From Kondoa subrosea (Eukaryota), in contig BCIN01000002.1 of NCBI GenBank assembly GCA_039545335.1, positions 757,118 to 821,117 on the forward strand: 64,000 nt of DNA, in the 5' to 3' direction. The translations under genes were made by a program, and so were the position numbers. This document shows, in pieces, positions 33 through 63,919 of this stretch (positions within the stretch are counted from its first letter, which is position 1; the number at the start of each line of letters is the position of its first letter). Under the pieces are notes generated by a model, which saw nothing but the letters and a program-made list of their open reading frames with translations, was not told the DNA's origin and did no database searches.

Positions 33-3000
33 TTAGGCGGAGGCAGAGATGGTTTGAGCTTGAGGAGCGAAACGAGTCGCCCTCAACGATCTCCTTGTCA
101 TACTGCCAGCTGAAGGTAATCGTGATTCGGTCTGAGTGAGGAAGGCGTCGACATCCACAGCTGCTGCTCGACCTTCTTGTATGCCCTGCGTGCATCACAT
201 CGTGAGTACAAATGGAGTGACTCTAAATCATCAAGAACTTACCCATACGATCAAGGATTGACCACGACGAGCATCACCAGCAGCGAAAACACCATCAACG
301 TTGGTAGCGTATTTGCCCTTTGCGGTCTTGATGTTGCTTCGAGGATCTTGCTCAAGACCAAGAGTCTTGATCGCCGCTTCTTCGGGACCCAAGAAACCGA
401 GAGCAAGCAAGCACAACTCGGCAGGGAAGACTATTGGAAGCAAGTTAGACCAATTGTAGCAAAGTAAGGTAAGAAAGGTGAACTTACATTGAGTCGAATT
501 GGGCACTTCAGCCATCTTCCAAGCTCCACTGTGATCCTTTGTCCACTCGACACGCACAGTATTGAGACCCTTCAAGTTGCCTTCTTCATCCTTGACAAAG
601 TCTTTGGTTGAAATGCAGTATTCACGAGGATCTTTGCCAAAGTGTGAAGCAACTTCAGTATGACCGTAGTCAACTCGGAAGATTCTAGGCCAAGTCGGCC
701 AGGGGTTGTCAGACCCACGAGCAGCAGGAGGTTGAGGGAGGAGTTCGAAGTTGGTGACGGAAAGAGCACCATGACGCATTGATGTACCGATGCAATCGTT
801 TCCTGTATCACCACCACCGATCACAATGACATTCTTGCCCTTTGCACTGATGTAGCGACCATCTTCGAGGTTTGAGTCAAGGAGACTGCGAGTGTTTTGA
901 GTAAGAAGTTCCATTGCGAAATGGATTCCATTTGCTTCGCGATTGGCAATTTTCAAGTCCCGAGGCCATGTTGCACCAGTAGCCATGACCAAGGCGTCGT
1001 TGGATGAGCGCAGTTCATGTGGATCAAGATCCCTTCCGATATGAGTGTTGTTGACGAATGTGATGCCTTCATCAGCCATCAAGTCAAGACGTCGTTGAAC
1101 AACCTGTCCCATACGAGCGTCAGCGTTGTTCTGAGTTCCTCGTGACACAACACAACATACCTTCTTGTCCAGCTTCATGTTCGGGATACCGTACATGAGC
1201 AAACCGCCGAATCGGTCGTTTCGCTCATATACGGTAACCGAGTGACCAGCTTTGTTAAGCTGATCTGCACATGCAAGACCAGCTGGTCCAGAGCCGACAA
1301 TGGCGACCTTCTTACCGGTGCGGTAAGCAGGAGGCTGAGGTACCATCCAACCTTCTTCGAAACCTTTGTCGATAATAGCGCACTCGATAGACTTGATTCC
1401 GACTGGAGCTTCATTGATACCCACTGCCAACATGTCATCAGCATTGAATGATAGAAACAGTCAAGTATACATACAGACACAGGCACCTTCGCAAGGCGCA
1501 GGGCAAACTCGACCAGTGAATTCTGGGAAGTTGTTGGTCATAAGAAGACGATTGAGCGCATCTCTCCATTGACCCTTGAAAACAAGATCGTTCCAGCGAG
1601 GGATAATGTTGGAGATAGGACATCCGCTGTCGGACTGGCAGAAAGGAACACCGCAATCCATACATCTTGCTGCTTGAACTTTCAACTCGTTGTCGGTCAA
1701 GCGTGTGCTGAGTTCTCCCCAGTCTTTGGTACGCTTGCGAGGCTATTTCCACATGGTCAGCTCTGTACGCAAGCGAAGGCAAAGAAAGAACCTACGTTGC
1801 GGTATTTCTCAGACAACCGAGCATACTTCATGAAGCCTCTCGTTTTGTCCAGCTTCTCGGCCTTCTTCTTGGTCATTGTATCATCGACCATCGAGTCTTC
1901 GAGATCAACAATAGGAGCTTCGCTATAACCAGCCTTTGCGCCAGGGAATTCAGTACCAGTGTTGGCGGTAGTCTTGGACTTCTGTTCCAAGGTAGAGTTG
2001 TCGTCTTTGAGATCAGCGAAACCTCCCATCTGTGCACGCATCTTCTCTTCGCGAGCCTTCAAGCTTTCGCCTTCTAGGACTGCCTTGTAGTCGAGAGGCA
2101 TGACGCGAACAAATCGAGGCAAAAGCTGGTTGAAGTTCTTGAGAACTCTGCCAGCATGTTCTGAGCCGGTCCAGTGCATATGGTCTTCAATCAAACCACG
2201 AAGTTCGGCAATTTCTTGAGGATCATTGACTGTGCCCAATTCGACTTGTTCCATGTTGACTTTCGACTTAAATTCTTGGCGAATATCAAGAACATAGGCG
2301 ATACCTCCACTCATACCGGCAGCGAAGTTGCGTCCAGTGCTTCCAAGAATGACGACACGACCACCAGTCATGTACTCACATCCATGGTCGCCCACGCCTT
2401 CGACCACAGCGCGGGCACCAGAGTTGCGGACGGCGAATCGTTCGGCTGCGATACCGCTGAAGAAAGCTTCACCAGAAGTAGCGCCATATAAGCAGACGTT
2501 TCCAATGATGACATTCTCTTCGGACTTGAAAGTAGAAACCTTGGGAGGGTAGACGATGAGGCGACCACCAGATAGACCTTTTCCAACGTAATCGTTCGCA
2601 TCACCTTCAAGTTCAAGAGTGATACCTGGAGCAAGGAAAGCGCCCAAAGATTGACCAGCAGATCCTTTCATGTCGACGTGAATAGTATCTTTTGGCAAGC
2701 CTTCTTCTCCGTAGATCTTTGACACACGGTTGGACAGAGTTGTACCAAGAGCTCGGTCGGTGTTGACCACATCGCAATCAATTCTCACAGGCAAACCCTT
2801 AGTCAAAGCTGGCTCGGATTCATCAATAAGCTTGTTGTCGAGACGGATGTACAGCTTGTGGTCTTGCTGACGAGTCTTGTAGGTAGCGACGCCCGGACGC
2901 ATCTTCCAAGCTGGCTTGAGAATGGCACTGAGATCGATGTTGGCAGTCTTTGGGTTGCGAAGTGATTCATCAACGCGAAGCATGTCTGATCGACCAACCA

Positions 3001-6000
3001 TCTCGTTGATAGTACGGAAACCAAGCTTGGCCATGATTTCTCGGAGTTCTTCAGCGACATAGTAGAAGAAGTTGATGACATGTTCTGGCTGACCCTGGAA
3101 CTTCGCTCGAAGTTCAGGATCTTGGGTAGCAATACCAACAGGGCAGGTGTTCAGATGGCATTTGCGCATCTTCAAGATGCAGATCAGCCTGGGCAAATTT
3201 CCGAGAGCGACGTCCACTCACCATGATACAGCCGAGAGCGATCAAAGGAGTAGTAGCGAAACCCCACTCTGTGCAATTCTTGTCAGCTAAATCTAGAAGG
3301 AAATCGAAAAGCCAACCTTCGGCGCCAAGCAAGCAAGCGATAGCTACATCTCGACCAGTTCTGATTTGACCATCGGTTTGAAGAGTAATACGACCACGAA
3401 GATCGTTGAGTACCAAAGTTTGGTGAGTTTCAGCAAGACCAAGTTCCCAAGGCAGACCGGCATATTTGATACCAGTCCATCTTGATGCTCCCGTACCACC
3501 ATCGTGGCCAGAGATAAGGATGTGGTCGGCTTTAGCTTTAGCGACACCTGATGCGACAATACCGACTCCGACTTCGGAAACGAGTTTGACGGAAACACGA
3601 GAGCGCGGGTTGGAGCATTTCAAATCGTAAATGAGTTGCTTGAGATCTTCAATGGAGTAGATATCGTGATGGGGAGGAGGAGAGATAAGACCGACACCTG
3701 GAGTGGAGTGACGAGTTCGACCAATAGACTTGGAAACTTTGTGACCTGGCAATTCACCACCTTCACCAGGCTTAGCACCTTGAGCCATTTTGATCTGAAT
3801 CTCATCTGCGTCGGCAAGATAGTTTGAGGTAACACCGAATCGACCAGAAGCGACTTGCTTGATAGCGGATCGAAGCGAATCACCGTTAGGCAAAGGAGTA
3901 GATCTTTCGGCATCTTCACCACCTTCACCAGTGTTTGACTTGCCGCCAAGTCTGTTCATAGCGACAGCGAGAGTAGAGTGCGATTCCATCGAAATTGAAC
4001 CGTAGGACATAGCACCAGTTACGAAGCGCTTGACGATATCATGCCAGGGCTCGACCTGATCGATAGGGATGACTTCCTGCACGGTGGAGAAATCGAAGTC
4101 GAGGAGACCACGAAGAGTGACGGCGCGAACTTGTTGACGAGCATTCTCGGCGTAAGCTTCATATGACTTCTTGTTTTTGGTCCGAACAGCATCTTGCAGG
4201 TTGGCCATAGCGAGAGGATCGTTGATGTGAGCTTCACCGCCATCTCTCCAATGATATTCACCTGATTCGGGAAGACCAGGAGGAATGACAGAGTTGGTAG
4301 AAGGATAACCACGTTCGTGGTATTCGAAAGCGTCCATAGCAAGAAGATCGAAGGTTGCACCTTGGATTCTGCTTGCGGTTCCGGTGAAGCACTTTTCGAC
4401 GACTGAAGAGTCGAGACCGAGGATTTCGAAGATTTGGGCTGCTTTGTAGGATTGCAGAGTAGAGATACCCATCTTGGACATGACTTTGAGGATACCGTTG
4501 TCAACTGCATGAATGTAGTTGTGTATAACATCATCTGCTGTGAGACCTCCCTTGATTAAACCTTCACGTTCAAGCTTGAGCATAGCTTCCATGCAAAGGT
4601 AAGGGTTGACCGCATCAGCACCATATCCGACCAAGACACACATGTGGTGCACTTCTCTTGCTTCGGCGGTTTCGACAATGAGAGCAATCTTGCTGCGTTG
4701 TTTTGAGCCGACTAAGTAATGGTGAACACCACCGCAAGCAGCCAAAGCAGAGACCGCAATGCGTTCAGCGTTGACACCACGATCGGAAAGGATGAGAACA
4801 CGCATGCCATCAGCGATTGCTTGACTTGCTTCCTTGAAAACACGTTCTAGGCAAGTTTTGTAACCCGGAAGACCTTCTGATTTAGGGAATGTAAGATCGA
4901 GAGTACGAGAAGGCCAGTCTTGATGAACGTCATCGAGCTTCTTGAGTGCTTGAGTCTCTTCAACAGTCAAGATAGGTGAAGATAAGAGAAGACGATGACA
5001 TTGTTCAGGGCGCATTTCGAGGAGATTGCCTTCGAAACCGACGTAGCATTCAAGCGACATGACAATGTTCTCACGGATGGGATCGATAGGAGGATTAGTG
5101 ACTTGAGCGAAGAGCTGACGGAAGTAGTCGTAAATAAGACGAGGTTGAGTAGCCATGCAAGCGAGAGGTGCATCGTTTGCCATGGAACCGAGAGCTTCCT
5201 TTCCGTCGTTGATCATAGGACGGAGAAGAAGGTCGAGCTGTTCGAAAGTGTAACCGAAAGCTTGAAGCTTGGGATCGGTGGAAATGGTGTAGTCGTCAAG
5301 AACGATGCCAAGGTTCATTCCCTTTGCTCGTTCTTTCTTCATAATAGATGGAAGCTTGAGCATTTGACCATCTACCCAATCGGCAAATTTCTGTCGACCG
5401 GCAGTCTTCATCTTGAGTTCCTTGTCATCAACAATTCTTCCCTCGACGGTATCAACCAATAACATCTTTCCAGGTTGAAGACGTCCCTTGTGGGTGATTT
5501 TCTCAGGTTCAATGTAGATAGTACCGACTTCAGAAGCACAAATCATGATATCTTCGTTTGTAGTGACCCATCTGCATGGACGAAGACCGTTTCTGTCCAA
5601 ATTGGCACCACAGTATCGACCGTCGGAGAAAGTGAAGAGTGCCGGACCATCCCATGGCTCCATTAGGCATGCTGCCCATTGGTAGAAGGCGACCTTTTCA
5701 GGTTCCATGTCCGCATTGTCTTGCCACGCTTCAGGTACCATCATCATGACTGCTTCAGGTAAAGTGACAACACCATTGACGACCAACAATTCGAGGACGT
5801 TATCGAAAGCAGCTGAATCAGATCCACCGACTTCAATAATAGGGTAAAGCATTGGCAGTTCATCGCCAAAGTTGGCAGAGACCAAATTGCCTTCACGAGC
5901 TCTCATCCAGTTCTTGTTACCTCGAAGGGTATTGATTTCACCATTGTGAGCTGCCCATCTCATAGGTTGAGCACGATCCCAAGATGGGAAAGTGTTGGTA

Positions 6001-7169
6001 GAGAATCGAGAGTGGACAAGACAGAAGTGAGACTTGAACAGGACGTGGCTATAAAACGGCTGTTAGTCGACTAATAATGCTGATAAGCGCAAGACTTACT
6101 TCAAATCATGATAATAGTTGTAGACCTGGGGTGGCGATAGCTGACCCTTGTAGACAATGTTCTGAGGGCTCAGAGAGCAGATGTAGAACCAGTTTGCAAG
6201 AGTGATGGTGTGAGTGGCATGCTTGCGCAGAACGTAAAGCTGGCGGTTAAAGTACTTCTCGTCGAAAGCCTTGCCAGACGAGCTCTTCAAAACAACCATA
6301 GGTTGGATGACCAAAGGTTCTCTGCTCAATGCAGCGGGACCAAGAATAGAATTGTCGCGAGGCACTTCTCGCCAACCGATGACCTGCAGATCGAGAGAGT
6401 CTGCGATCTTTTCGAATGTAGCCCGATGTTCAGCTTGAGTATCTTTGGCATGAGGCTTGAGGAAGACGTTGCCGACTGCATATTGACCAAGAGGAGGTAC
6501 AGTGCAACCCAGATCACGTTCGAATTCTCTTCGGAAGAAAGCATCTGGCATTCCAACCATAACACTGGAAAACTTATGAGCTCAAATGCTGAGCATATGA
6601 GACCTAAAAGCTTACCCTGCACCATCACCATCTCTAGCATCGGCACCAGTAGCACCGCGATGGGTCATGTTGCATAGCAATGATCTTGCATCGGTAACAA
6701 TTTTATGCGAAGGTTGTCCTTTGATATGGCAGACCTAGAGCCATTAAAGTGTAAGTCGTATTCCTCTGTTCAATCGCATTGACGTACGAAGCCGACACCG
6801 CATGCATCCTTTTCATTTTCCGGGTCTAATAACAACCGAAAGTTAGCACCGCAAATCGCTCCACAACAGGCGTAGACGAACCATATAGACCTTGCTGAAG
6901 ACATAACGAGGATTCAATCAGCACACATCCCTGACTAGAAAGATTCGATCCTGACTCACAGCAGCAGGCAATGCTCCCGCCCATAAAGTATCTGATCTTT
7001 CTACATTTTCTGCTTGAGCCAACAAATCGGCGTCATCCTCTAGATCGATCTGAGAAGTAGAAGCTGTTGGGATTTCATGCTCTTGAACTTCTGTTGCGAA
7101 TCTAACTCTTGCTGGTTTATCTGCTTGAAACTGTCTGGATTGAGTGGCGGGTTTGACGCTATCGAGCAT
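33..7169 (-). CDS. GLT1: NADH-dependent glutamate synthase (GOGAT), multi-exon, complete
   Basis: ORFs 6918-7169, 6096-6560, 3114-5963, 1757-3217, 1461-1700 and 231-1433 give [63 protein letters not shown] and GGGDTGNDC. The last exon ([13 protein letters not shown]...ASA*) ends at a TAA at 33-35. Confidence 0.97.
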
Positions 7170-40009: not shown

Positions 40010-43000
40010 ATGACCGAACAAGCTTCTGTACGCTTCGCAGTAGCCAACAGCAATGGCTCTAGCAGTCCAGCAAGCTCCGATCACATAGTTTATGGCTCTA
40101 ATGGTACTCGGTCTTCTTTGGTCGGGCTAGACTTGGCTGATCCTGTGAGCTCTCTTCCGCTTTTGGACTGACCGAATTACTCATATGATTCTATTGCATC
40201 AGGCCAATCGTAACGGGACTGCTCCAGAAGAAGTTCAAGCGGTTCGTCAAATTTCTGCCTCTTGACGCATCCGTTATCCCATTCAATAAATTTTTCTAGA
40301 GGTTGGAACAAAAGCGTCTAGAACATGAGAGACAGCGAGAAAAGCAGAAGCATCTGTTCGAAGCTCAAGTAACTCTAGCCATATATTTTCAGAATGATTA
40401 TCCTGACAAATTTGATTTCTCCTTGCTAGATGAAAGCACTGCAAGCTCAACAAGAAGCAGAAGAAGCAGAATTAATCAATGCTGTTCAGTCTGATGGCAG
40501 CTCTCCCGAACACAATTACAAGACATCTTACAAGACATCAGCAAGCGCGCCCGCTTCTCCTCCTGCTAATTCAGCCTCGGATTCAAGTCATGACGAGATG
40601 AGCAAATCCCAGATCATCACTGGTACCAAGAATGGTGCTTCAAATGGCAAGTCTTCCTCTTCGCGTTTCGCTCGCAGCAAATCCGGAAACGATTTAGTCG
40701 GTTTTGGTCAGACTTATGCCAGAGATGGTTCTTCCTCTGGTTCTACATCGCCAGTACAAGAGGTGTCTGCTTCAAGAGCTTCTTCTCGCTCTGGAAGTAC
40801 TGCTGCTATGCCGAACAACATGACAATGAGCGAAATTATTGGTGGAACGAATGGTGCTAGAAAGACTTTGCCTAAAAGTTTGCCTGCTAGTCGTCGTCAT
40901 TCGAAGAACGAGGACGAATCTAGAGCATTGGCGAATGGACTATCGCAGATGTCCATGGTAGAGTAAGTTTTATCATGCGTACCAGTTTTAGTCTTCGCTA
41001 AGTTGCGATCCAGTCGTCATGCGCGTCGTGGAGCATCTGAAGCCCCTCTTCTGACCAGTTTCCTCTTTGATGACGAGCTTGATGCCGATCTCAACAGTAT
41101 GCTAATTCTTACCCAATCTTCCGATGTCTTCTAATTAATCTGCCGCTCAAGGTTCTTTCGGTGGAAAATACCTCGCCATGAATACAGACGACGACGACAA
41201 GTTCCCTATCCTTGTTCGTAGAGACAGCTTTCCTGGGATTGTCAGTGTATTCCCATTTTTTGAGCAAAAACAAGGCTGATTACGTAATAACTTAGCTCTC
41301 GGCTTCTTCCGCTGCATTAGATCTGGCTCCTCTTTCACAGACACCTCCGAAATCCAGCTTCAGAGCCCAAGATTCAGGTCGAGGATCCGAATGGCCTTCC
41401 TTCAGCAACACCGCTCAATCAGCTCAGCGTCAACAGCGCGGTTTCCCTCAAGGACAGTCTTCTTCCTCTTTACAGCCACAATCTCCACAGCAGCATCGCT
41501 CTCCATCTGCATCTATGCTACCTCAACCACCTGCTTCGCCAAATCGCGCTCCTGGAAGTGGCCGAACATCACCTGTTGTCGAATTTAACAGTCCGGGCAA
41601 GCGTTCTGTCGGTCTTGGCATGTCGTCTACCGCTCCCAACAGTCCAGAAGATGTTCGCGCTGCCGGTAGTAAAAGATCTAGCATGATCTTGCCTACGACT
41701 GCCTCGATCAACGCTATGACAAGTCCTTTCGCTGCTGATCTGTCTTCTGCTGTATGTTATTCCTAGAACTCCGGTAATCATTGTTAATCCAGAGTATTAC
41801 AGTTCGCCAGCTCTGCTTTCAACCCGTATACTTCTCAAGCTCAAGGTCAAACTATGCTGCCTACTCAGAACGGTGATTTCTATTCTTACGGAACAGCTAA
41901 CGGAAGCAACGATTATGGTTACGGACGAGGACAAATGTACAATTCTTACCCTCATCAGCAACAGCAAGGTCGAGGCTACTATGGCAATCAGAAACAAATG
42001 GGCCAAGCTGGTTTAGGAAGAAGAATGGAAGAGGAGGCGAATCGTTTCGCTGGATTGAGGCTGGAAGATCTGCAGGGTGACATGGCCAGCTTGTGCCGAG
42101 ATCAGCACGGTTGTCGATTTCTGCAACGCAAACTAGAAGAAGGCAACCCTCAATATCGCGACATGATCTTTTCAGAAATCTACCCTCATTTCGCAGAACT
42201 TATGACGGATTCCTTCGGCAACTATTTGGCTCAACGTCTTTTGGAGTTTTCGACTGATGATCAGAAGAGCATCTTGATTGATAGCATTCACAACGATCTA
42301 GTCAACATCTCACTCAACATGTAAGCGCGAGTCGATATCGCATGAGTACTGCTGAGAGTGCTTTCAGTCATGGAACTCGTGCCATCCAGAGATTGATTGA
42401 TCACCTGACCACTCCACGCCAAATTCAGTCTTTGGTGAACGCTTTGCTCCCACATGTCGTTCTTCTGATCAAAGATTTGAACGGCAATCATGGTTTGTTT
42501 GCAATTCCATAACCTATTGCATTTGACTGAACTGTGATCCAGTCATTCAGAAATGTCTCAATTCGCTAAAACCAGAAGAAAACCAATTCATCTACAATGC
42601 TGTTGCAGAAAACTGCGTGGAAGTAGCGACTCATCGTCATGGCTGTTGTGTTCTCCAGCGCTGCCTCGATCATGCAACAGAAGCCCAGCGTCTTCAGCTC
42701 GTTACGGAAATCACTTATCAATGTCTCACTTTGGTTCAAGATCCGTTCTCCAATTACGTGGTCCAGTACTGCCTAGAATTTGACAGACGCTTCGTTGGTG
42801 CTATCATTCGTCAATTCCAAGGCAATGTTTGTGCTCTCAGCTGTCACAAATTCAGCTCGAACGTGAGTCTGATCGATTACAGGCGTCTGGTACTCTGACA
42901 CTGATGTTTTTATTCAGGTCATCGAGAAGTGCTTACGGGTCGCGGAACCGGACGGCAGAAGGCTGTTAATCGGTGAAATGCTGGAACGAGGTCGACTTGA

Positions 43001-43472
43001 ACGCTTGGTCAAGGACAACTTCGCCAACTATGTCGTACAGACCGCTTGCGACTTTGCAGAGCCTGTTCAGCGAGAACAATTGGTCTCTCAGATCAGACCA
43101 TTGCTGCCCATGATCCGCAATGTGAGTCTTCTTCCTTTCAAGGTCGATAACGGATTAAGTTCTGTTTCGCAGACTCCGTATGGCAAACGTATCGCTGCTC
43201 GTATTCAACGCGGTCCACAACCTCAAGGACCAGCTCGATTTGTTTCTTACCATCCGGTTGCCGGAGGTTTCCCTTATGCACCTCAGCCTGGATATGGACC
43301 ACCTCAGGGCATGAATGGTCAAGGCATGATGAATGATACGTATACTCAACAGCAAAGATCTTTCAGTTTGGGAGCCCCACTCCAAATGGGCGGAAACCAA
43401 TTTATGCCTTTTCAACAGCAAGACTACACTCAATCAATGAACAACGGATACGCATCACCTGCATTCCTGTAA
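40010..43472 (+). CDS. Pumilio/PUF RNA-binding protein (Puf4/Puf5-like)
   Basis: PUF repeats DQHGCRFLQ, DSFGNYLAQ, HGTRAIQ, DLNGNHVIQ, HRHGCCVLQ, DPFSNYVVQ, HKFSSNVIE and DNFANYVVQ, after a low-complexity N-terminus. The start is approximate. Confidence 0.95.
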
Positions 43473-54589: not shown

Positions 54590-55371
54590 ATGTCAAAAGA
54601 AGAAATGAATGAATTAGACGCTATGCTCTCGAAATCCGTAGTCAAAGATGGAGCAGAAGACTCTGGTTCCGATACCGAAAACATCGCTACAGGAGGAGCC
54701 GGTGGAGGAAACATTAAAGTCATTGACACTCAATCTCGAGGTGAAAAGAAAGCTAGGAAAGCTTTATCCAAATTAGGTCTTGTTCCTGTACCCAACATCA
54801 ATCGAGTTACCTTCAGAAGACCTAAAGGTGTTTTGGTCGTCATTGCTAAACCTGAAGTCTTCAAATCACCAGACAGCAATACTTACATTGTTTTCGGTGA
54901 AGCTAAAGTTGAAGATATCAATTCCAATGGAATGGGTGGTTTGGGTAATGGTGGAATGACTCCTCAGCAACAACAGCAATACAGAGTCATGCAACAAGCT
55001 CAAGAACAATCCGCAATGGCAAAAGCTGGAAAGGGCAAAGCTAGCCAAGCGGAAGAAGAAGAGGAAGGTGATGTGGATGAATCAGACGTCAACAAAGAGG
55101 AGATTGAGTTGGTCATGAAGCAGGTAAGAGCATTTGATTGAGTACTTTGCAGTGATCATACTGATTTCGCGGTTTTCAGGCTGACTGCACAAGGGGGAAA
55201 GCGGTGCGGATGCTGAAGAAACATGGAGACGTCAGTGAGTGAACTAAGCGCTCTGTTGTGAACACAACTCAGTGTGTCGGACCATCTCATAGTCAGCGCG
55301 ATCAGTCAGTCAATATTAAGTGAAAATGCGGATCTTGCTGACGTTAGGTGATAGTGGAAGCACAATCATAA
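54590..55371 (+). CDS. EGD2: Nascent polypeptide-associated complex alpha subunit
   Basis: [48 protein letters not shown]-like [26 protein letters not shown]. Confidence 0.95.
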
Positions 55372-56954: not shown

Positions 56955-59390
56955 ATGGCAGCTTGGCTCTTCTCTGGCGCGGGCTCACAATCCACTGACG
57001 CCTCATCATCTGGCAGCAGTTCGCAACCTGTTCCCTCTTCATTCGATGATCTCCTCAACTCTGCTACCTCTGAGCTCTTACCTACTCCTAATATTTCCAA
57101 AGAAGAATCTGCTCTAGATCCAGAATTGCTCGAGAAAGGTCTCTCGCTCTCAGACTTGGTTAGGTCGGGTGCCTACAAACCTTCAGAAGCAGTCAAGCAA
57201 TTCAGGAAACGGATAGGGCACAAGAACCCTAATGTCATACTACGCTCGTTGTTATGCTTGGATGTAGCCATCAAGAATTCGGGCGATGCCTTCTTGAAGG
57301 AGGTTGCTGGTTTAAACAGCTCTGCTTCTACTTCTGGTACAAAGAGTATTGTAGATGATCTGGCTGATCTTATACGAATGGTATTGTTCCTCATCTGTTT
57401 CGGGGATGAACCCATCGCTGATGTATCACTGCCAGAGCACCAATCATGATGTCAAATCTACAACGCTTCGGCTTATGCAGAACTGGGCAACAGCATTTCA
57501 ATCCAAGCCACCTCTTTCAATCTCTGAAATGGTACTTACCTACACCCGCTTGAGATCAGAAGGTCAACCTTTTCCACCTATCTCTTCATCAGCGACAGCA
57601 GCGATGATTGATTCGATGTCTGCACCGACTTGGACCGATAACAGTGAATCACCACTATGTTCTCGATGTAGGGATCCTTTTGGTGTTTTGAACAGAAGAC
57701 ATCATTGTCGCAATTGTGGTCAACTGTTTGATCAGAAATGTTCTTCCAAATCAGTCACTCTACCTCATTTTGGAATTAACGTACCTGTTCGAGTCTGTGA
57801 TGGATGTTTCAAGAAAGTAGCTGATCGGGGAAACCCAATCTCCAATACTAAACGACGAGCCTCGTTCGAATCTACTTCTTCCTACTCTTCCTCCGCTAGA
57901 ATTCCACAAAGGGGTTCCTCTTTCTCTCATCGTTCAAATCATTACGCCAAATATTCAGCAACCAATAAAGAAGATGAAGATTTACAATTAGCCCTACGAC
58001 TTTCTCTAAACGATTCAACATCTCAACAACAACCTACTACAGCTTATTCTGCACCATCTGAATACGGTCCTTTACGTAATGGTTATCAACCTGCATATCC
58101 AAACCAGAAACCTAGAATAGCAGAAGAAGAAGATCCAGATCTAGCAGCTGCTATTGCCGCTTCTTTAAGGGATTTGGAAACCGCTCCTTCTGCTCCACCT
58201 CCTATGTCACCTTCTCAAGAAGAACAGGATTCTCAATGGACTCAAATTCCACCTATGGCTGAACTCAATGGGAGAGAATTGGATAGCGTTTTGAGCTTTT
58301 GTCAAGGTGTGGAAGGACATTTGGATCCTAGAAGTTTGGAGGGTATGTATAGAGATGCAGATGGATGTAGGAGGACTTTGGTCAGAAGTGTGGGAGATGC
58401 AGGTGGGAGAGAACGTGAGTTTCTAAGCAATTTTTTTTATTGATGATATGCTGATACGATTGAGTAGAGGTGCTTGTTGAGATGAGAGATAAGTTGAGAG
58501 AGGCTATGAGGTTGTATGAAGGTCTATTGGACAGGGAAGCTGCAAGACATCAAGCTCGAGCGTCGGCGCATTATGGTCAGTGGATGCTTCGTCGAAACAT
58601 ATATTTGTCTGAGACGAATTTCACCTTGACAGGTCGAGCTCCGCAACAACAGTACTACGAACAGCAACCGCCTTATGGTTACCATCAGCCGCAAAGGCAA
58701 ACTGCAGCGCAGTATCAACCTGAACCTCAACAACCGCAATTTGCTTCTGCTTATCCATCTATGCCTTCTTATTCATCCGCACCTCCGCAAGCTATGTACA
58801 TATCTCCGCCTCAGCAGCAACAGCAGCAATATCGATCACCTTCGAGGCAATATGATCCAGTTCAGCCTCAACCGTATCAACCTCAATTTGGCCAGGCTTC
58901 TCCGCAACAGCAAGCCTACGAATCAGCTCCTCCTTCGCATAGCTACCCCCAGCAAGGGGCACATGAGTCGGCACCTCAGATGGAACAACAATTTTCAGCC
59001 CCTATACATCAACAGCATATTCAAGAGCAATATCATCAACCACAACAGAATCTCAATCCGAATGCACCGTCATATGAACCCGACCAAATACATCAGCAGC
59101 CAGAATTAAATCCACATGCTACGCCTTATCAACCCGAATTGAATCCACATGCACCTGTTTATCAACCTCAAATGGACCCTCAAGTTGTACCTCATCAACC
59201 GCAACAACAACAGCAGCACTACGCGCCGCCTCAAGCACAGCAATATCAAAATGTAGCAGTTCAGCAATTAGCAAACTTGCCTCAAGCTCCGCAAGCCGCA
59301 CCTCCTCAGTTCCCTGCAGTGCCAGATCATGATATTGGTACTCCGCAAAAGGAGGAGAAGAAGGAAGAAGCGATGCTGATTGAGTTCTGA
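56955..59390 (+). CDS. VPS27: ESCRT-0 subunit Vps27/Hrs (VHS-FYVE-UIM-UIM, Q/P-rich tail, clathrin box)
   Basis: VHS (RIGHKNPNV..L.D..KNSG), FYVE (RRHHCRNCG..VRVCDGC), UIMs EDEDLQLALRLSL and DPDLAAAIAASL, C-terminal LIEF. Confidence 0.95.

Positions 59391-61459: not shown

Positions 61460-63919
<2,460 letters not shown>

What the first reader, a model, noticed from the sequence alone, without database searches (positions are those of the whole stretch)
59049..59167. Three PAM2-like motifs in Vps27: ESCRT-0 as a possible mRNP-endosome adaptor
Seen: the Q/P tail has NLNPNAPSYEP, ELNPHATPYQP and ELNPHAPVYQP. Established: the PAM2 consensus L-N-x-x-A-x-x-F-x-P binds MLLE domains of poly(A)-binding protein. 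In Ustilago maydis, the FYVE protein Upa1 uses PAM2/PAM2-like motifs to couple Pab1 and Rrm4 mRNPs to moving endosomes. All three copies keep the L, N, A and P spacing, with Tyr in place of Phe. Inference: this PI3P-binding ESCRT-0 subunit may tether Pab1/Rrm4 mRNPs multivalently, linking ubiquitin sorting to endosomal mRNA transport or turnover. I know of no such role for Vps27.
Basis: partly seen in the sequence, partly recalled or inferred. Interest (0 to 1): 0.75.

Follow-up and report, generated by a model that had tools for sequence, protein, structure and literature searches.

The report
Triple PAM2-like motif in Vps27 tail
A fungal endosome-sorting protein (Vps27) carries three copies of a short peptide that closely resembles the docking site for poly(A)-binding protein, which hints at a species-specific, still untested link between endosomes and mRNA.

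Summary
A four-exon Vps27/Hrs gene (56955-59390, +) has VHS, FYVE, two UIMs, PSAP and a conserved C-terminal LIEF. Its Q/P-rich tail encodes NLNPNAPSYEP, ELNPHATPYQP and ELNPHAPVYQP at 59049-59168.

All three fit the PAM2 spacing L-N-x-x-A-x-x-aromatic-x-P, with Tyr where Phe (rarely Trp) is described. Chance is unlikely: 3e-4 of tail shuffles give one such motif, and no other site exists in the window's six frames.

The six shared residues are kept through 7-12 nucleotide differences per 33-nt unit, and most other positions changed. That points to selection on the motif.

The motif is lineage-specific. 0 of 120 Vps27 homologues (50% identity or less) have it, and no closer relative is on record.

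Tyr looks tolerable. In viral contigs, LNPNAKE?xP has Phe in 4 loci, Tyr in 3 and eight other residues in 0.

The Rrm4 part is unsupported, because the protein has no FxY (PAM2L) core. Binding is untested and the organism's own Pab1 was not available.

Verdict: a plausible (about 0.4) Tyr-variant PAM2 array that recruits Pab1 to ESCRT-0. Earlier notes of this scan describe PAM2 arrays only in giant viruses, not in Vps27.

The parts
56955..59390 (+). Vps27/Hrs (ESCRT-0) gene, 756 aa. Exons 56955-57380, 57436-58414, 58468-58575 and 58633-59390 (stop included). GT..AG introns 57381-57435, 58415-58467 and 58576-58632.
   Evidence: Gene model built from the sequence; Pfam domains; best homologues are named Vps27. 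No RNA data were available to confirm splicing.
57126..57308 (+). VHS domain (the part matched by Pfam)
   Evidence: PF00790, E 7.1e-14, profile positions 23-83 of 141; coordinates
57628..57819 (+). FYVE zinc finger (PI3P binding)
   Evidence: PF01363, E 2.4e-21; coordinates
57970..58014 (+). UIM 1 (ubiquitin-interacting motif)
   Evidence: PF02809, E 5.1e-07; coordinates
58126..58173 (+). UIM 2 (read from the sequence; not a separate Pfam stretch)
   Evidence: Acidic run followed by L-AAA-I-AA-S, seen in the translation; inference
58186..58197 (+). PSAP motif (the P[ST]AP type that binds the Vps23/Tsg101 UEV domain; that function is from established knowledge)
   Evidence: 91 of 120 homologues also have P[ST]AP.
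58635..59375 (+). Q/P/A/Y-rich low-complexity tail, presumably disordered
   Evidence: Composition of the 251 aa: Q 64, P 47, A 25, Y 19. No Pfam family. Disorder is inferred from composition.
59049..59081 (+). PAM2-like copy 1, NLNPNAPSYEP
   Evidence: Aligns to superPAM2 (8smo_B) over NLNPNAP...P.
59103..59135 (+). PAM2-like copy 2, ELNPHATPYQP
59136..59168 (+). PAM2-like copy 3, ELNPHAPVYQP (tandem with copy 2)
59376..59387 (+). C-terminal LIEF, clathrin-box-like end conserved in Vps27 homologues
   Evidence: 39 of the 40 printed homologue C-termini end in L-I-x-[LF]

Best explanation
The three repeats are a lineage-specific, selectively maintained array of short linear motifs of the PAM2 type, with Tyr as the aromatic anchor. 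They sit in the disordered tail of the ESCRT-0 subunit Vps27. [quoted passage not shown] Leu would sit in one hydrophobic pocket and Tyr in the other, with the N-P turn and the small Ala between them. Several Pab1 molecules coat one poly(A) tail, so three copies would give avidity. A PI3P- and ubiquitin-binding endosomal protein would thereby hold Pab1-bound mRNPs, or Pab1 itself, at endosomes.

Shown: the gene identity, the motif, its improbability by chance, the pattern of constraint, its absence from distant orthologues, and the natural occurrence of Tyr in viral PAM2-type motifs. Inferred: disorder of the tail, MLLE binding, and any consequence for mRNA.
For: (1) All three copies keep L, N, A, aromatic and P at the PAM2 spacing, plus the Pro after N. 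The consensus comes from passages of PMC9249222 and PMC7356810. In U. maydis Upa1 the same L-to-F (+7) and F-to-P (+2) spacing is read by the Pab1 MLLE domain, and the L, F or P to Ala changes abolish binding (PMC11572963, section 9).
(2) A 21-aa piece around copy 1 was searched against 177,635 distinct PDB sequences. Rank 1 was 8smo_B 'superPAM2', aligned NLNPNAPSYEPD to NLNPNAPEFHPG. E is 0.35, so this is a ranking and not a significant score.
(3) Chance: 3e-4 of 200,000 tail shuffles gave one motif. There is no other site in the six frames of the window. 0 of 120 homologues have it.
(4) Constraint: the copies differ at 11, 12 and 7 of 33 nucleotides, yet L, N, P, A, Y and P are identical, with synonymous codon differences (CTC/TTA/TTG, CCG/CCA, GCA/GCT, CCC/CCT). 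5, 4 and 2 of the other five positions changed. Random placement of the same number of substitutions keeps all six residues in 0.08%, 0.04% and 1.5% of simulations.
(5) Tyr tolerance: scans of IMG/VR viral contigs for LNPNAKE?xP gave Phe in 4 loci and Tyr in 3 independent loci, L124, L157 and L180. Ser/Cys gave 0 and Ile/Asn/Leu/His/Val/Asp gave 0. L136 has a Phe copy and a Tyr copy in tandem. L127 and L140 have an N-terminal Tyr copy on small proteins with basic tails.
(6) The MLLE pockets are described as 'relatively wide and shallow', and they also accept Trp (PMC7356810 passages).
(7) In U. maydis, Vps27-Gfp shuttles on the motile endosomes (PMC5415202 passages). That is the compartment that carries Pab1 and Rrm4 (PMC4466420 passages).
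Against: [quoted passage not shown] I saw no measured Tyr-type PAM2.
(2) No orthologue conservation: 0 of 120 Vps27 homologues carry LNP.A or LN..A..[FYW].P. This includes Ustilaginomycotina, where the transport system is known. No closer relative exists in the searched collections.
(3) The C-terminal half, A..[FYW].P, is a compositional feature of Vps27 tails (68 of 120 homologues). Only the LNP.A half is unusual.
(4) Tandem duplication, not three independent origins, explains the multiplicity. The three pairwise simulations are not independent and use a uniform mutation model.
(5) The viral Tyr motifs are themselves untested and come from viruses of other hosts.
(6) Even the proven PAM2 of the endosomal FYVE protein Upa1 is dispensable for its function (PMC4466420 passage).
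Confidence: 0.4

Rival explanations
1. Neutral by-product. A short unit in a fast-evolving low-complexity tail was duplicated and happens to resemble PAM2. It binds nothing specific.
For: The motif is lineage-specific (0 of 120 homologues). Copies 2 and 3 are a plain 33-bp tandem repeat. A..[FYW].P is common in such tails (68 of 120). Tyr is not the described anchor residue. The only library hit of the tail is an unrelated tandem repeat, LLNPHLSVYQP x6 in P0121, which shows that similar strings arise from simple repeats.
Against: Tail shuffles give the motif in 3e-4. Six residues are kept through 7-12 nucleotide differences, with synonymous changes at those codons, while most other positions changed. 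The first seven residues of copy 1 are identical to those of superPAM2 as aligned.
Confidence: 0.3
2. A functional linear motif for another partner of ESCRT-0, for example an Rsp5-type WW domain reading x-P-x-Y, a clathrin or adaptor module, or the Hse1 SH3 domain, rather than MLLE.
For: The constraint on the residues says nothing about the partner. Two of the three copies contain A-P-x-Y. This protein has no [PL]P.Y, whereas 63 of 120 homologues have at least one, so a replacement is conceivable.
Against: Copy 2 has A-T-P-Y, so x-P-x-Y is not shared by all three copies. No motif class that I know (recalled: NPF, NPxY, YxxPhi, PPxY, YPxL) uses L, N, P, A, Y and P at this spacing. PAM2 accounts for five of these six positions and for the spacing.
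Confidence: 0.2
3. The motifs bind an Rrm4-type MLLE platform, so that Vps27 acts like Upa1 as an adaptor for the mRNA transporter itself.
For: Upa1 (FYVE) and Vps8 (CORVET) link endosomes to Rrm4 through PAM2-like peptides in U. maydis (PMC11572963 passages). A Tyr is one of the two key residues of PAM2L.
Against: The PAM2L code is an acidic stretch plus F-x-Y. This Vps27 has no [DE][DE]F.Y and no F.Y anywhere. In pull-downs the Leu-type PAM2 is read by Pab1 and the FxY type by Rrm4 MLLE3. Whether this organism has Rrm4 could not be checked, because no genome is held.
Confidence: 0.07

Closest known systems
PAM2 motifs of PABP partners (consensus xxLNxxAxEFxP); nearest solved example is the engineered 'superPAM2' bound to the PABPC1 MLLE domain (PDB 8SMO chain B)
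   Same: L, N, (P), A and P are at identical spacing. Copy 1 shares NLNPNAP...P with superPAM2 as aligned. The motifs sit in a low-complexity region.
   Different: Tyr stands at the anchor position where Phe is described (Trp in LARP4/4B). Ser, Pro or Val stands where the consensus has Glu. The host protein is an ESCRT-0 subunit. Binding is untested.
Upa1 of Ustilago maydis (endosomal FYVE protein with one PAM2 and two PAM2L motifs; PMC4466420, PMC11572963; complex with the Pab1 MLLE domain is PDB 8S6U)
   Same: A PI3P-binding FYVE protein of endosomes that carries an MLLE-ligand-type peptide in a disordered region. The L-to-aromatic and aromatic-to-Pro spacing is the same.
   Different: The protein family differs (Pib1-like RING/ankyrin against VHS-FYVE-UIM). 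Upa1 has Phe and a single PAM2 plus FxY-type PAM2L motifs for Rrm4. Here there are three Tyr-type copies and no PAM2L. The Upa1 PAM2 is dispensable.
Vps8 (CORVET) PAM2L motifs that bind Rrm4 MLLE3 (PMC11572963)
   Same: A precedent that a core endosomal trafficking protein has gained MLLE-binding peptides in an intrinsically disordered region, limited to some basidiomycetes.
   Different: Those are FxY-type motifs that did not bind the Pab1 MLLE domain. The motifs here are Leu-type and have no FxY.
PAM2w of LARP4 and LARP4B (Trp in place of Phe; PMC7356810)
   Same: A natural variant of the aromatic anchor that still binds the canonical MLLE cleft.
   Different: It is Trp, not Tyr, and it has been shown by crystal structures and binding assays. 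The Tyr form has neither.
Tyr-type PAM2-like motifs in giant-virus and other viral contigs found here (L124, L157, L180, L136, L127, L140, L185)
   Same: LNPNA-x-x-Y-x-P. L140 has LNPNAPAYVP against LNPNAPSYEP here. L136 has more than one copy.
   Different: These are viral small proteins, several with basic tails. They are uncharacterised, and their hosts and partners are unknown.

Membership tests
Vps27/Hrs (ESCRT-0) | N-terminal VHS domain | tested here: met
   PF00790, E 7.1e-14, covering only profile positions 23-83 of 141 in exon 1
Vps27/Hrs (ESCRT-0) | FYVE zinc finger | tested here: met
   PF01363, E 2.4e-21, profile positions 1-65 of 67
Vps27/Hrs (ESCRT-0) | Ubiquitin-interacting motif(s) | tested here: met
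   PF02809, E 5.1e-07; a second UIM-like stretch was read from the sequence
Vps27/Hrs (ESCRT-0) | P[ST]AP motif and C-terminal clathrin-box-like end | tested here: met
   PSAP at aa 393 (91 of 120 homologues also have P[ST]AP). The protein ends in LIEF, as do 39 of the 40 printed homologue ends with L-I-x-[LF].
Vps27/Hrs (ESCRT-0) | Hse1/STAM-binding GAT or coiled-coil core | tested here: inconclusive
   No GAT-type Pfam hit at E <= 0.01 in the exon 1, exon 2 and exon 4 pieces scanned; exon 3 was not scanned. The nearest Pucciniomycotina homologues also list none in their precomputed domains.
PAM2 (ligand of the PABP MLLE domain) | Leu-Asn at consensus positions 3-4 | tested here: met
   LN in 3 of 3 copies
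PAM2 (ligand of the PABP MLLE domain) | Small Ala at position 7 | tested here: met
   Ala in 3 of 3 copies
PAM2 (ligand of the PABP MLLE domain) | Phe (or Trp in PAM2w) at position 10, the main binding determinant | tested here: not met
   Tyr (TAT) in 3 of 3 copies. The literature passages seen name only Phe and Trp. Viral scans show natural Tyr forms: Phe 4, Tyr 3, eight other residues 0.
PAM2 (ligand of the PABP MLLE domain) | Pro at position 12 | tested here: met
   Pro in 3 of 3 copies. The P141A change abolishes Upa1-Pab1 binding.
PAM2 (ligand of the PABP MLLE domain) | Direct binding to an MLLE domain | not testable with these tools
   Needs ITC or a pull-down with the organism's own Pab1. 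No genome is held and no PABP gene lies in the window.
PAM2 (ligand of the PABP MLLE domain) | Conservation of the motif in orthologues | tested here: not met
   0 of 120 Vps27 homologues. All are at most 50% identical, and no close relative was found.
PAM2L (ligand of Rrm4 MLLE3) | F-x-Y core preceded by acidic residues | tested here: not met
   No [DE][DE]F.Y and no F.Y in the 756-aa protein. The code is taken from PMC11572963.

The most novel reading that the evidence does not exclude
ESCRT-0 of this fungus is a multivalent, ubiquitin-independent receptor for poly(A)-binding protein. The Tyr-type PAM2 array would let Vps27 capture Pab1-coated mRNAs on PI3P endosomes. The mRNAs could then hitch-hike on the endosomes, or be sorted into multivesicular bodies for vacuolar turnover or export in vesicles. 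This would be a second, independent invention of the endosome-mRNP link known from Upa1 and Vps8 in smut fungi. It would also define a Tyr class of PAM2 shared with giant viruses.
Probability: 0.12. Interest if true: 0.8.

Novelty: new variant of a known kind. Interest (0 to 1): 0.5.

Why it matters
How mRNPs attach to endosomes is an open question. In Ustilago, Rrm4 still rides endosomes without Upa1 and without the Vps8 motifs, so further adaptors are being sought (PMC11572963 passages). A PAM2-type array on the cargo-sorting subunit Vps27 would join ubiquitin sorting and mRNA biology in one protein. It would also show that such links evolve repeatedly through short motifs.

Separately, the viral scans suggest that Tyr is a natural alternative to Phe at the PAM2 anchor. 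This would widen motif searches, and it can be tested directly with peptides.

The case rests on one species and on sequence evidence only.

Tried and rejected
Complex prediction. The 52-aa motif segment was run against a stand-in MLLE domain from a metagenome transcript. That stand-in, L049, has U. maydis Pab1 (8s6u_A) as its best PDB match. The tool did not use the 82-row alignment A1. Scores were 0.28 and 0.27 against a mark of 0.34, and the verdict was 'no answer'. It counts neither for nor against binding.

Sequencing runs. Only two DNA rows, which are probably the source of the window, and no RNA holder listed. Splicing and expression could not be checked, and no reads were laid.

Own genome. 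None is held, so Pab1, Rrm4 and Upa1 of this organism could not be sought. Pfam on 126 of the 130 open frames of 100 aa or more found no PABP or MLLE gene in the window; the four left out overlap the Vps27 gene.

Search for relatives of the tail.
- Near-length word search: 1489 candidates, none at E <= 0.001.
- Motif region against longer proteins: 8 candidates, none at E <= 10.
- Full HMMER scan of 1.84 billion representatives: one hit, P0121 (E 3.4e-5). It is an unrelated fragment ending in six LLNPHLSVYQP repeats without the Ala, and I rejected it as a simple-repeat look-alike.
- ESM Atlas: no usable hit.
- PDB with the whole 52-aa segment: no hit.
- Earlier findings of this scan by place and by sequence: nothing.

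Literature searches for a precedent.
- PAM2 + Vps27: 4 papers, judged unrelated from titles and abstract starts only.
- PAM2 + ESCRT-0: 2 papers, judged unrelated likewise.
- MLLE + ESCRT: 12 papers, none on Vps27 by title or abstract start.
- Vps27 + Pab1: 6 papers. I opened only PMC5415202, which uses both as markers.
- I found no report of a PAM2 in Vps27 or Hrs.

I did not see the list of 14 U. maydis PAM2 candidates (PMC4466420, Supplementary file 1) or the SI tables of PMC11572963. Either could name Vps27.

My C-terminal regular expression was faulty and returned 0. The printed C-termini replace it.

A possible fourth, decayed unit follows copy 3 (QMDPQVVPHQP, 59169-59201). By my own count it is only 17 of 33 nucleotides identical to copy 3, so I did not count it.

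Full report
**Observation.** The window encodes, on the + strand, NLNPNAPSYEP (59049-59081), ELNPHATPYQP (59103-59135) and ELNPHAPVYQP (59136-59168). Tandem Repeats Finder reports copies 2 and 3 as a 33-bp unit, 2.0 copies, 81% matches. Copy 1 lies seven codons upstream.

**The gene.** A four-exon model with GT..AG introns gives a 756-aa protein. The exons are 56955-57380, 57436-58414, 58468-58575 and 58633-59390.
- Pfam finds VHS in exon 1, and FYVE and UIM in exon 2.
- There is a second UIM-like stretch and a PSAP motif.
- The protein ends in LIEF. 39 of the 40 homologue C-termini that I printed end in L-I-x-[LF]. This fixes the reading frame through the motifs.
- Intron 3 is 57 nt, in frame and free of stops, so even its retention would not change the tail frame.
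- The exon-2 query retrieved 230 proteins at E <= 1e-10, of which 120 were listed. The best are named Vps27 and come from Pucciniomycotina: Microbotryomycetes sp. JL201 at 50% identity and Mixia osmundae at 48%.
- The source is therefore a Pucciniomycotina-like fungus without a close sequenced and annotated relative.
- No genome is held for it and no RNA run is listed, so the splice model rests on sequence and homology alone.

**Chance and constraint.**
- The tail (251 aa: Q 64, P 47, A 25, Y 19, L 6, N 7) was shuffled 200,000 times. At least one LN..A..[FYW].P appeared in 0.03% of shuffles and at least two in none.
- The pattern occurs nowhere else in the six-frame translation of the 64-kb window.
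- The copies differ at 11 (1 v 2), 12 (1 v 3) and 7 (2 v 3) of 33 nucleotides. L, N, P, A, Y and P are nevertheless invariant, with synonymous differences in the Leu, Pro and Ala codons. 5, 4 and 2 of the other five positions changed.
- Placing the same number of random substitutions keeps all six residues in 0.08%, 0.04% and 1.5% of 200,000 simulations.
- The pairs are not independent, the mutation model is crude, and the motif was picked because it matched.
- Even so, the pattern is what purifying selection on exactly the PAM2 positions would give. It stands in for the orthologue conservation that cannot be had.
- All three copies use TAT, so Tyr is old in this array and not a recent decay of Phe.

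**Orthologues.**
- None of the 120 retrieved Vps27 homologues has LNP.A or LN..A..[FYW].P.
- One (P0087) has a loose LS..A..Y.P.
- The half-motif A..[FYW].P is common in these tails (68 of 120), so only the LNP.A half is distinctive.
- Searches for closer relatives of the tail found none.
- The one library hit, P0121, is an unrelated fragment ending in six LLNPHLSVYQP repeats without the Ala.
- The motif is therefore lineage-specific as far as the data reach.

**Is it PAM2?** The consensus xxLNxxAxEFxP and the two-pocket binding mode come from passages of PMC9249222 and PMC7356810 and from section 9 of PMC11572963. Leu and Phe sit in the pockets, with Ala and Pro as further contacts.
- In U. 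maydis the L132A, F139A and P141A changes in Upa1 abolish binding to the Pab1 MLLE domain.
- The three copies here have the same L-to-aromatic (+7) and aromatic-to-Pro (+2) spacing.
- A 21-aa piece around copy 1 ranks the engineered MLLE ligand superPAM2 (8smo_B) first among 177,635 PDB sequences. Seven consecutive identities are followed by the shared Pro. E is 0.35, so this is a ranking only.
- The departure is Tyr at the anchor position. The papers seen describe Phe in all PAM2 motifs except the Trp of LARP4/4B. They also describe the pockets as wide and shallow.
- From memory, and unchecked here, the ELM pattern for this motif admits Phe or Tyr.

**A test of Tyr tolerance.** I scanned the IMG/VR viral contigs for LNPNA-x-x-Y-x-P and found 88 loci.
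- 38 belong to a recurrent LNPNA-x-N-Y-x-P (mostly N-Y-N-P) family in long ORFs, unrelated to PAM2 as far as I can tell.
- 6 have a stop inside the motif.
- 44 are others. Among these, three independent loci read LNPNAKEY[IVN]P (L124, L157, L180). That is the canonical K-E context, which my pattern did not specify.
- L136 has a Phe-type and a Tyr-type copy in tandem on a small protein with a basic tail. L127 and L140 have an N-terminal Tyr-type copy and basic tails. L185 reads LNPNAEEYVP.
- Fixing the context LNPNAKE?xP gave Phe in 4 loci, Tyr in 3, Ser/Cys in 0 and Ile/Asn/Leu/His/Val/Asp in 0.
- Tyr is therefore a natural and recurrent alternative to Phe in viral PAM2-type motifs, although none of them has been tested for binding.
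- Earlier notes of this scan on giant-virus PAM2 proteins with basic tails (e1-5510682) helped me recognise these.

**Rrm4.** The MLLE3 domain of Rrm4 reads an acidic stretch plus F-x-Y, and PAM2L peptides did not bind the Pab1 MLLE domain. This Vps27 has no F.Y at all.

**Mechanism and rivals.**
- I rate a Tyr-type PAM2 array that docks Pab1 onto ESCRT-0 at about 0.4.
- A neutral repeat gets 0.3, a motif for another partner 0.2 and an Rrm4 ligand 0.07.
- Vps27-Gfp rides the motile endosomes of U. maydis (PMC5415202), so the place of action is plausible.
- The proven PAM2 of Upa1 is dispensable (PMC4466420), which warns that even real binding may have a subtle effect.

**Novelty.**
- My four literature searches found no report of a PAM2 in Vps27 or Hrs. 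For most listed papers I saw only titles and abstract starts.
- Because the Phe/Trp feature and the orthologue conservation are not met, I do not file the motifs as PAM2 members. I file them as a PAM2-like Tyr variant in a new host protein.

Noticed in passing
L124, L157, L180, L136, L127, L140, L185 (IMG/VR viral contigs; motif at about 601-629 of each locus): Viral, partly giant-virus, small proteins carry PAM2-type motifs with Tyr at the Phe position. In the context LNPNAKE?xP the counts are Phe 4 loci, Tyr 3 and eight other residues 0. L136 has one Phe and one Tyr copy in tandem. L127, L136 and L140 end in Ser/Arg/Lys-rich basic tails.
   Followed up: partly
38 loci among L118-L205, e.g. 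L154, L156, L201, L205: A recurrent viral protein family (ORFs of 115 to more than 400 aa within the loci) has a conserved N-P-L-N-P-N-A-x-N-Y-N-P-x-L-Q-G-Q-I stretch. It matches the PAM2 spacing by letters but looks like part of a folded phage protein. Its function is unknown to me.
   Followed up: no
P0121 (272 aa): The only library hit of the tail is a fragment whose C-terminus is six tandem LLNPHLSVYQP units. It looks like a translated 33-bp DNA repeat behind a transposase-like segment, and it resembles the Vps27 repeat by chance.
   Followed up: partly
window 58576-58632: Intron 3 of the Vps27 model is 57 nt, in frame and without a stop. Retention would insert 19 residues without shifting the tail frame.
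   Followed up: no
window 59169-59201: Directly after copy 3 comes QMDPQVVPHQP. It could be a decayed fourth unit (M for L, D for N, V for A, H for Y). By my own count it is only 17 of 33 nt identical to copy 3.
   Followed up: partly
window 56955-59390 (whole Vps27 protein): This Vps27 has no [PL]P.Y (WW-domain type) motif, while 63 of 120 homologues have at least one.
   Followed up: no
window 56955-57380: The Pfam VHS match covers only profile positions 23-83 of 141 in exon 1. About 28 Ser/Gly-rich residues precede the VHS-like start, so the true start codon or first exon may differ from my model.
   Followed up: no
window 41788-43469 (+); 234-6581 (-); 54590-55138 (+); 62457-63714 (+): Neighbouring genes by Pfam on open frames: a Pumilio-family RNA-binding protein, a large glutamate synthase, a NAC-domain protein and a prolyl-tRNA-synthetase-like gene. 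Also present are Rad1, a Zn2Cys6 factor, the DNA primase large subunit and an IBR/RING protein.
   Followed up: no
P0087 (Vps27 homologue named Ceraceosorus bombacis), about aa 500-510: A single loose PAM2-like string, LSRPAASYAP, also with Tyr. It is the only one among the 120 homologues and is probably chance.
   Followed up: no
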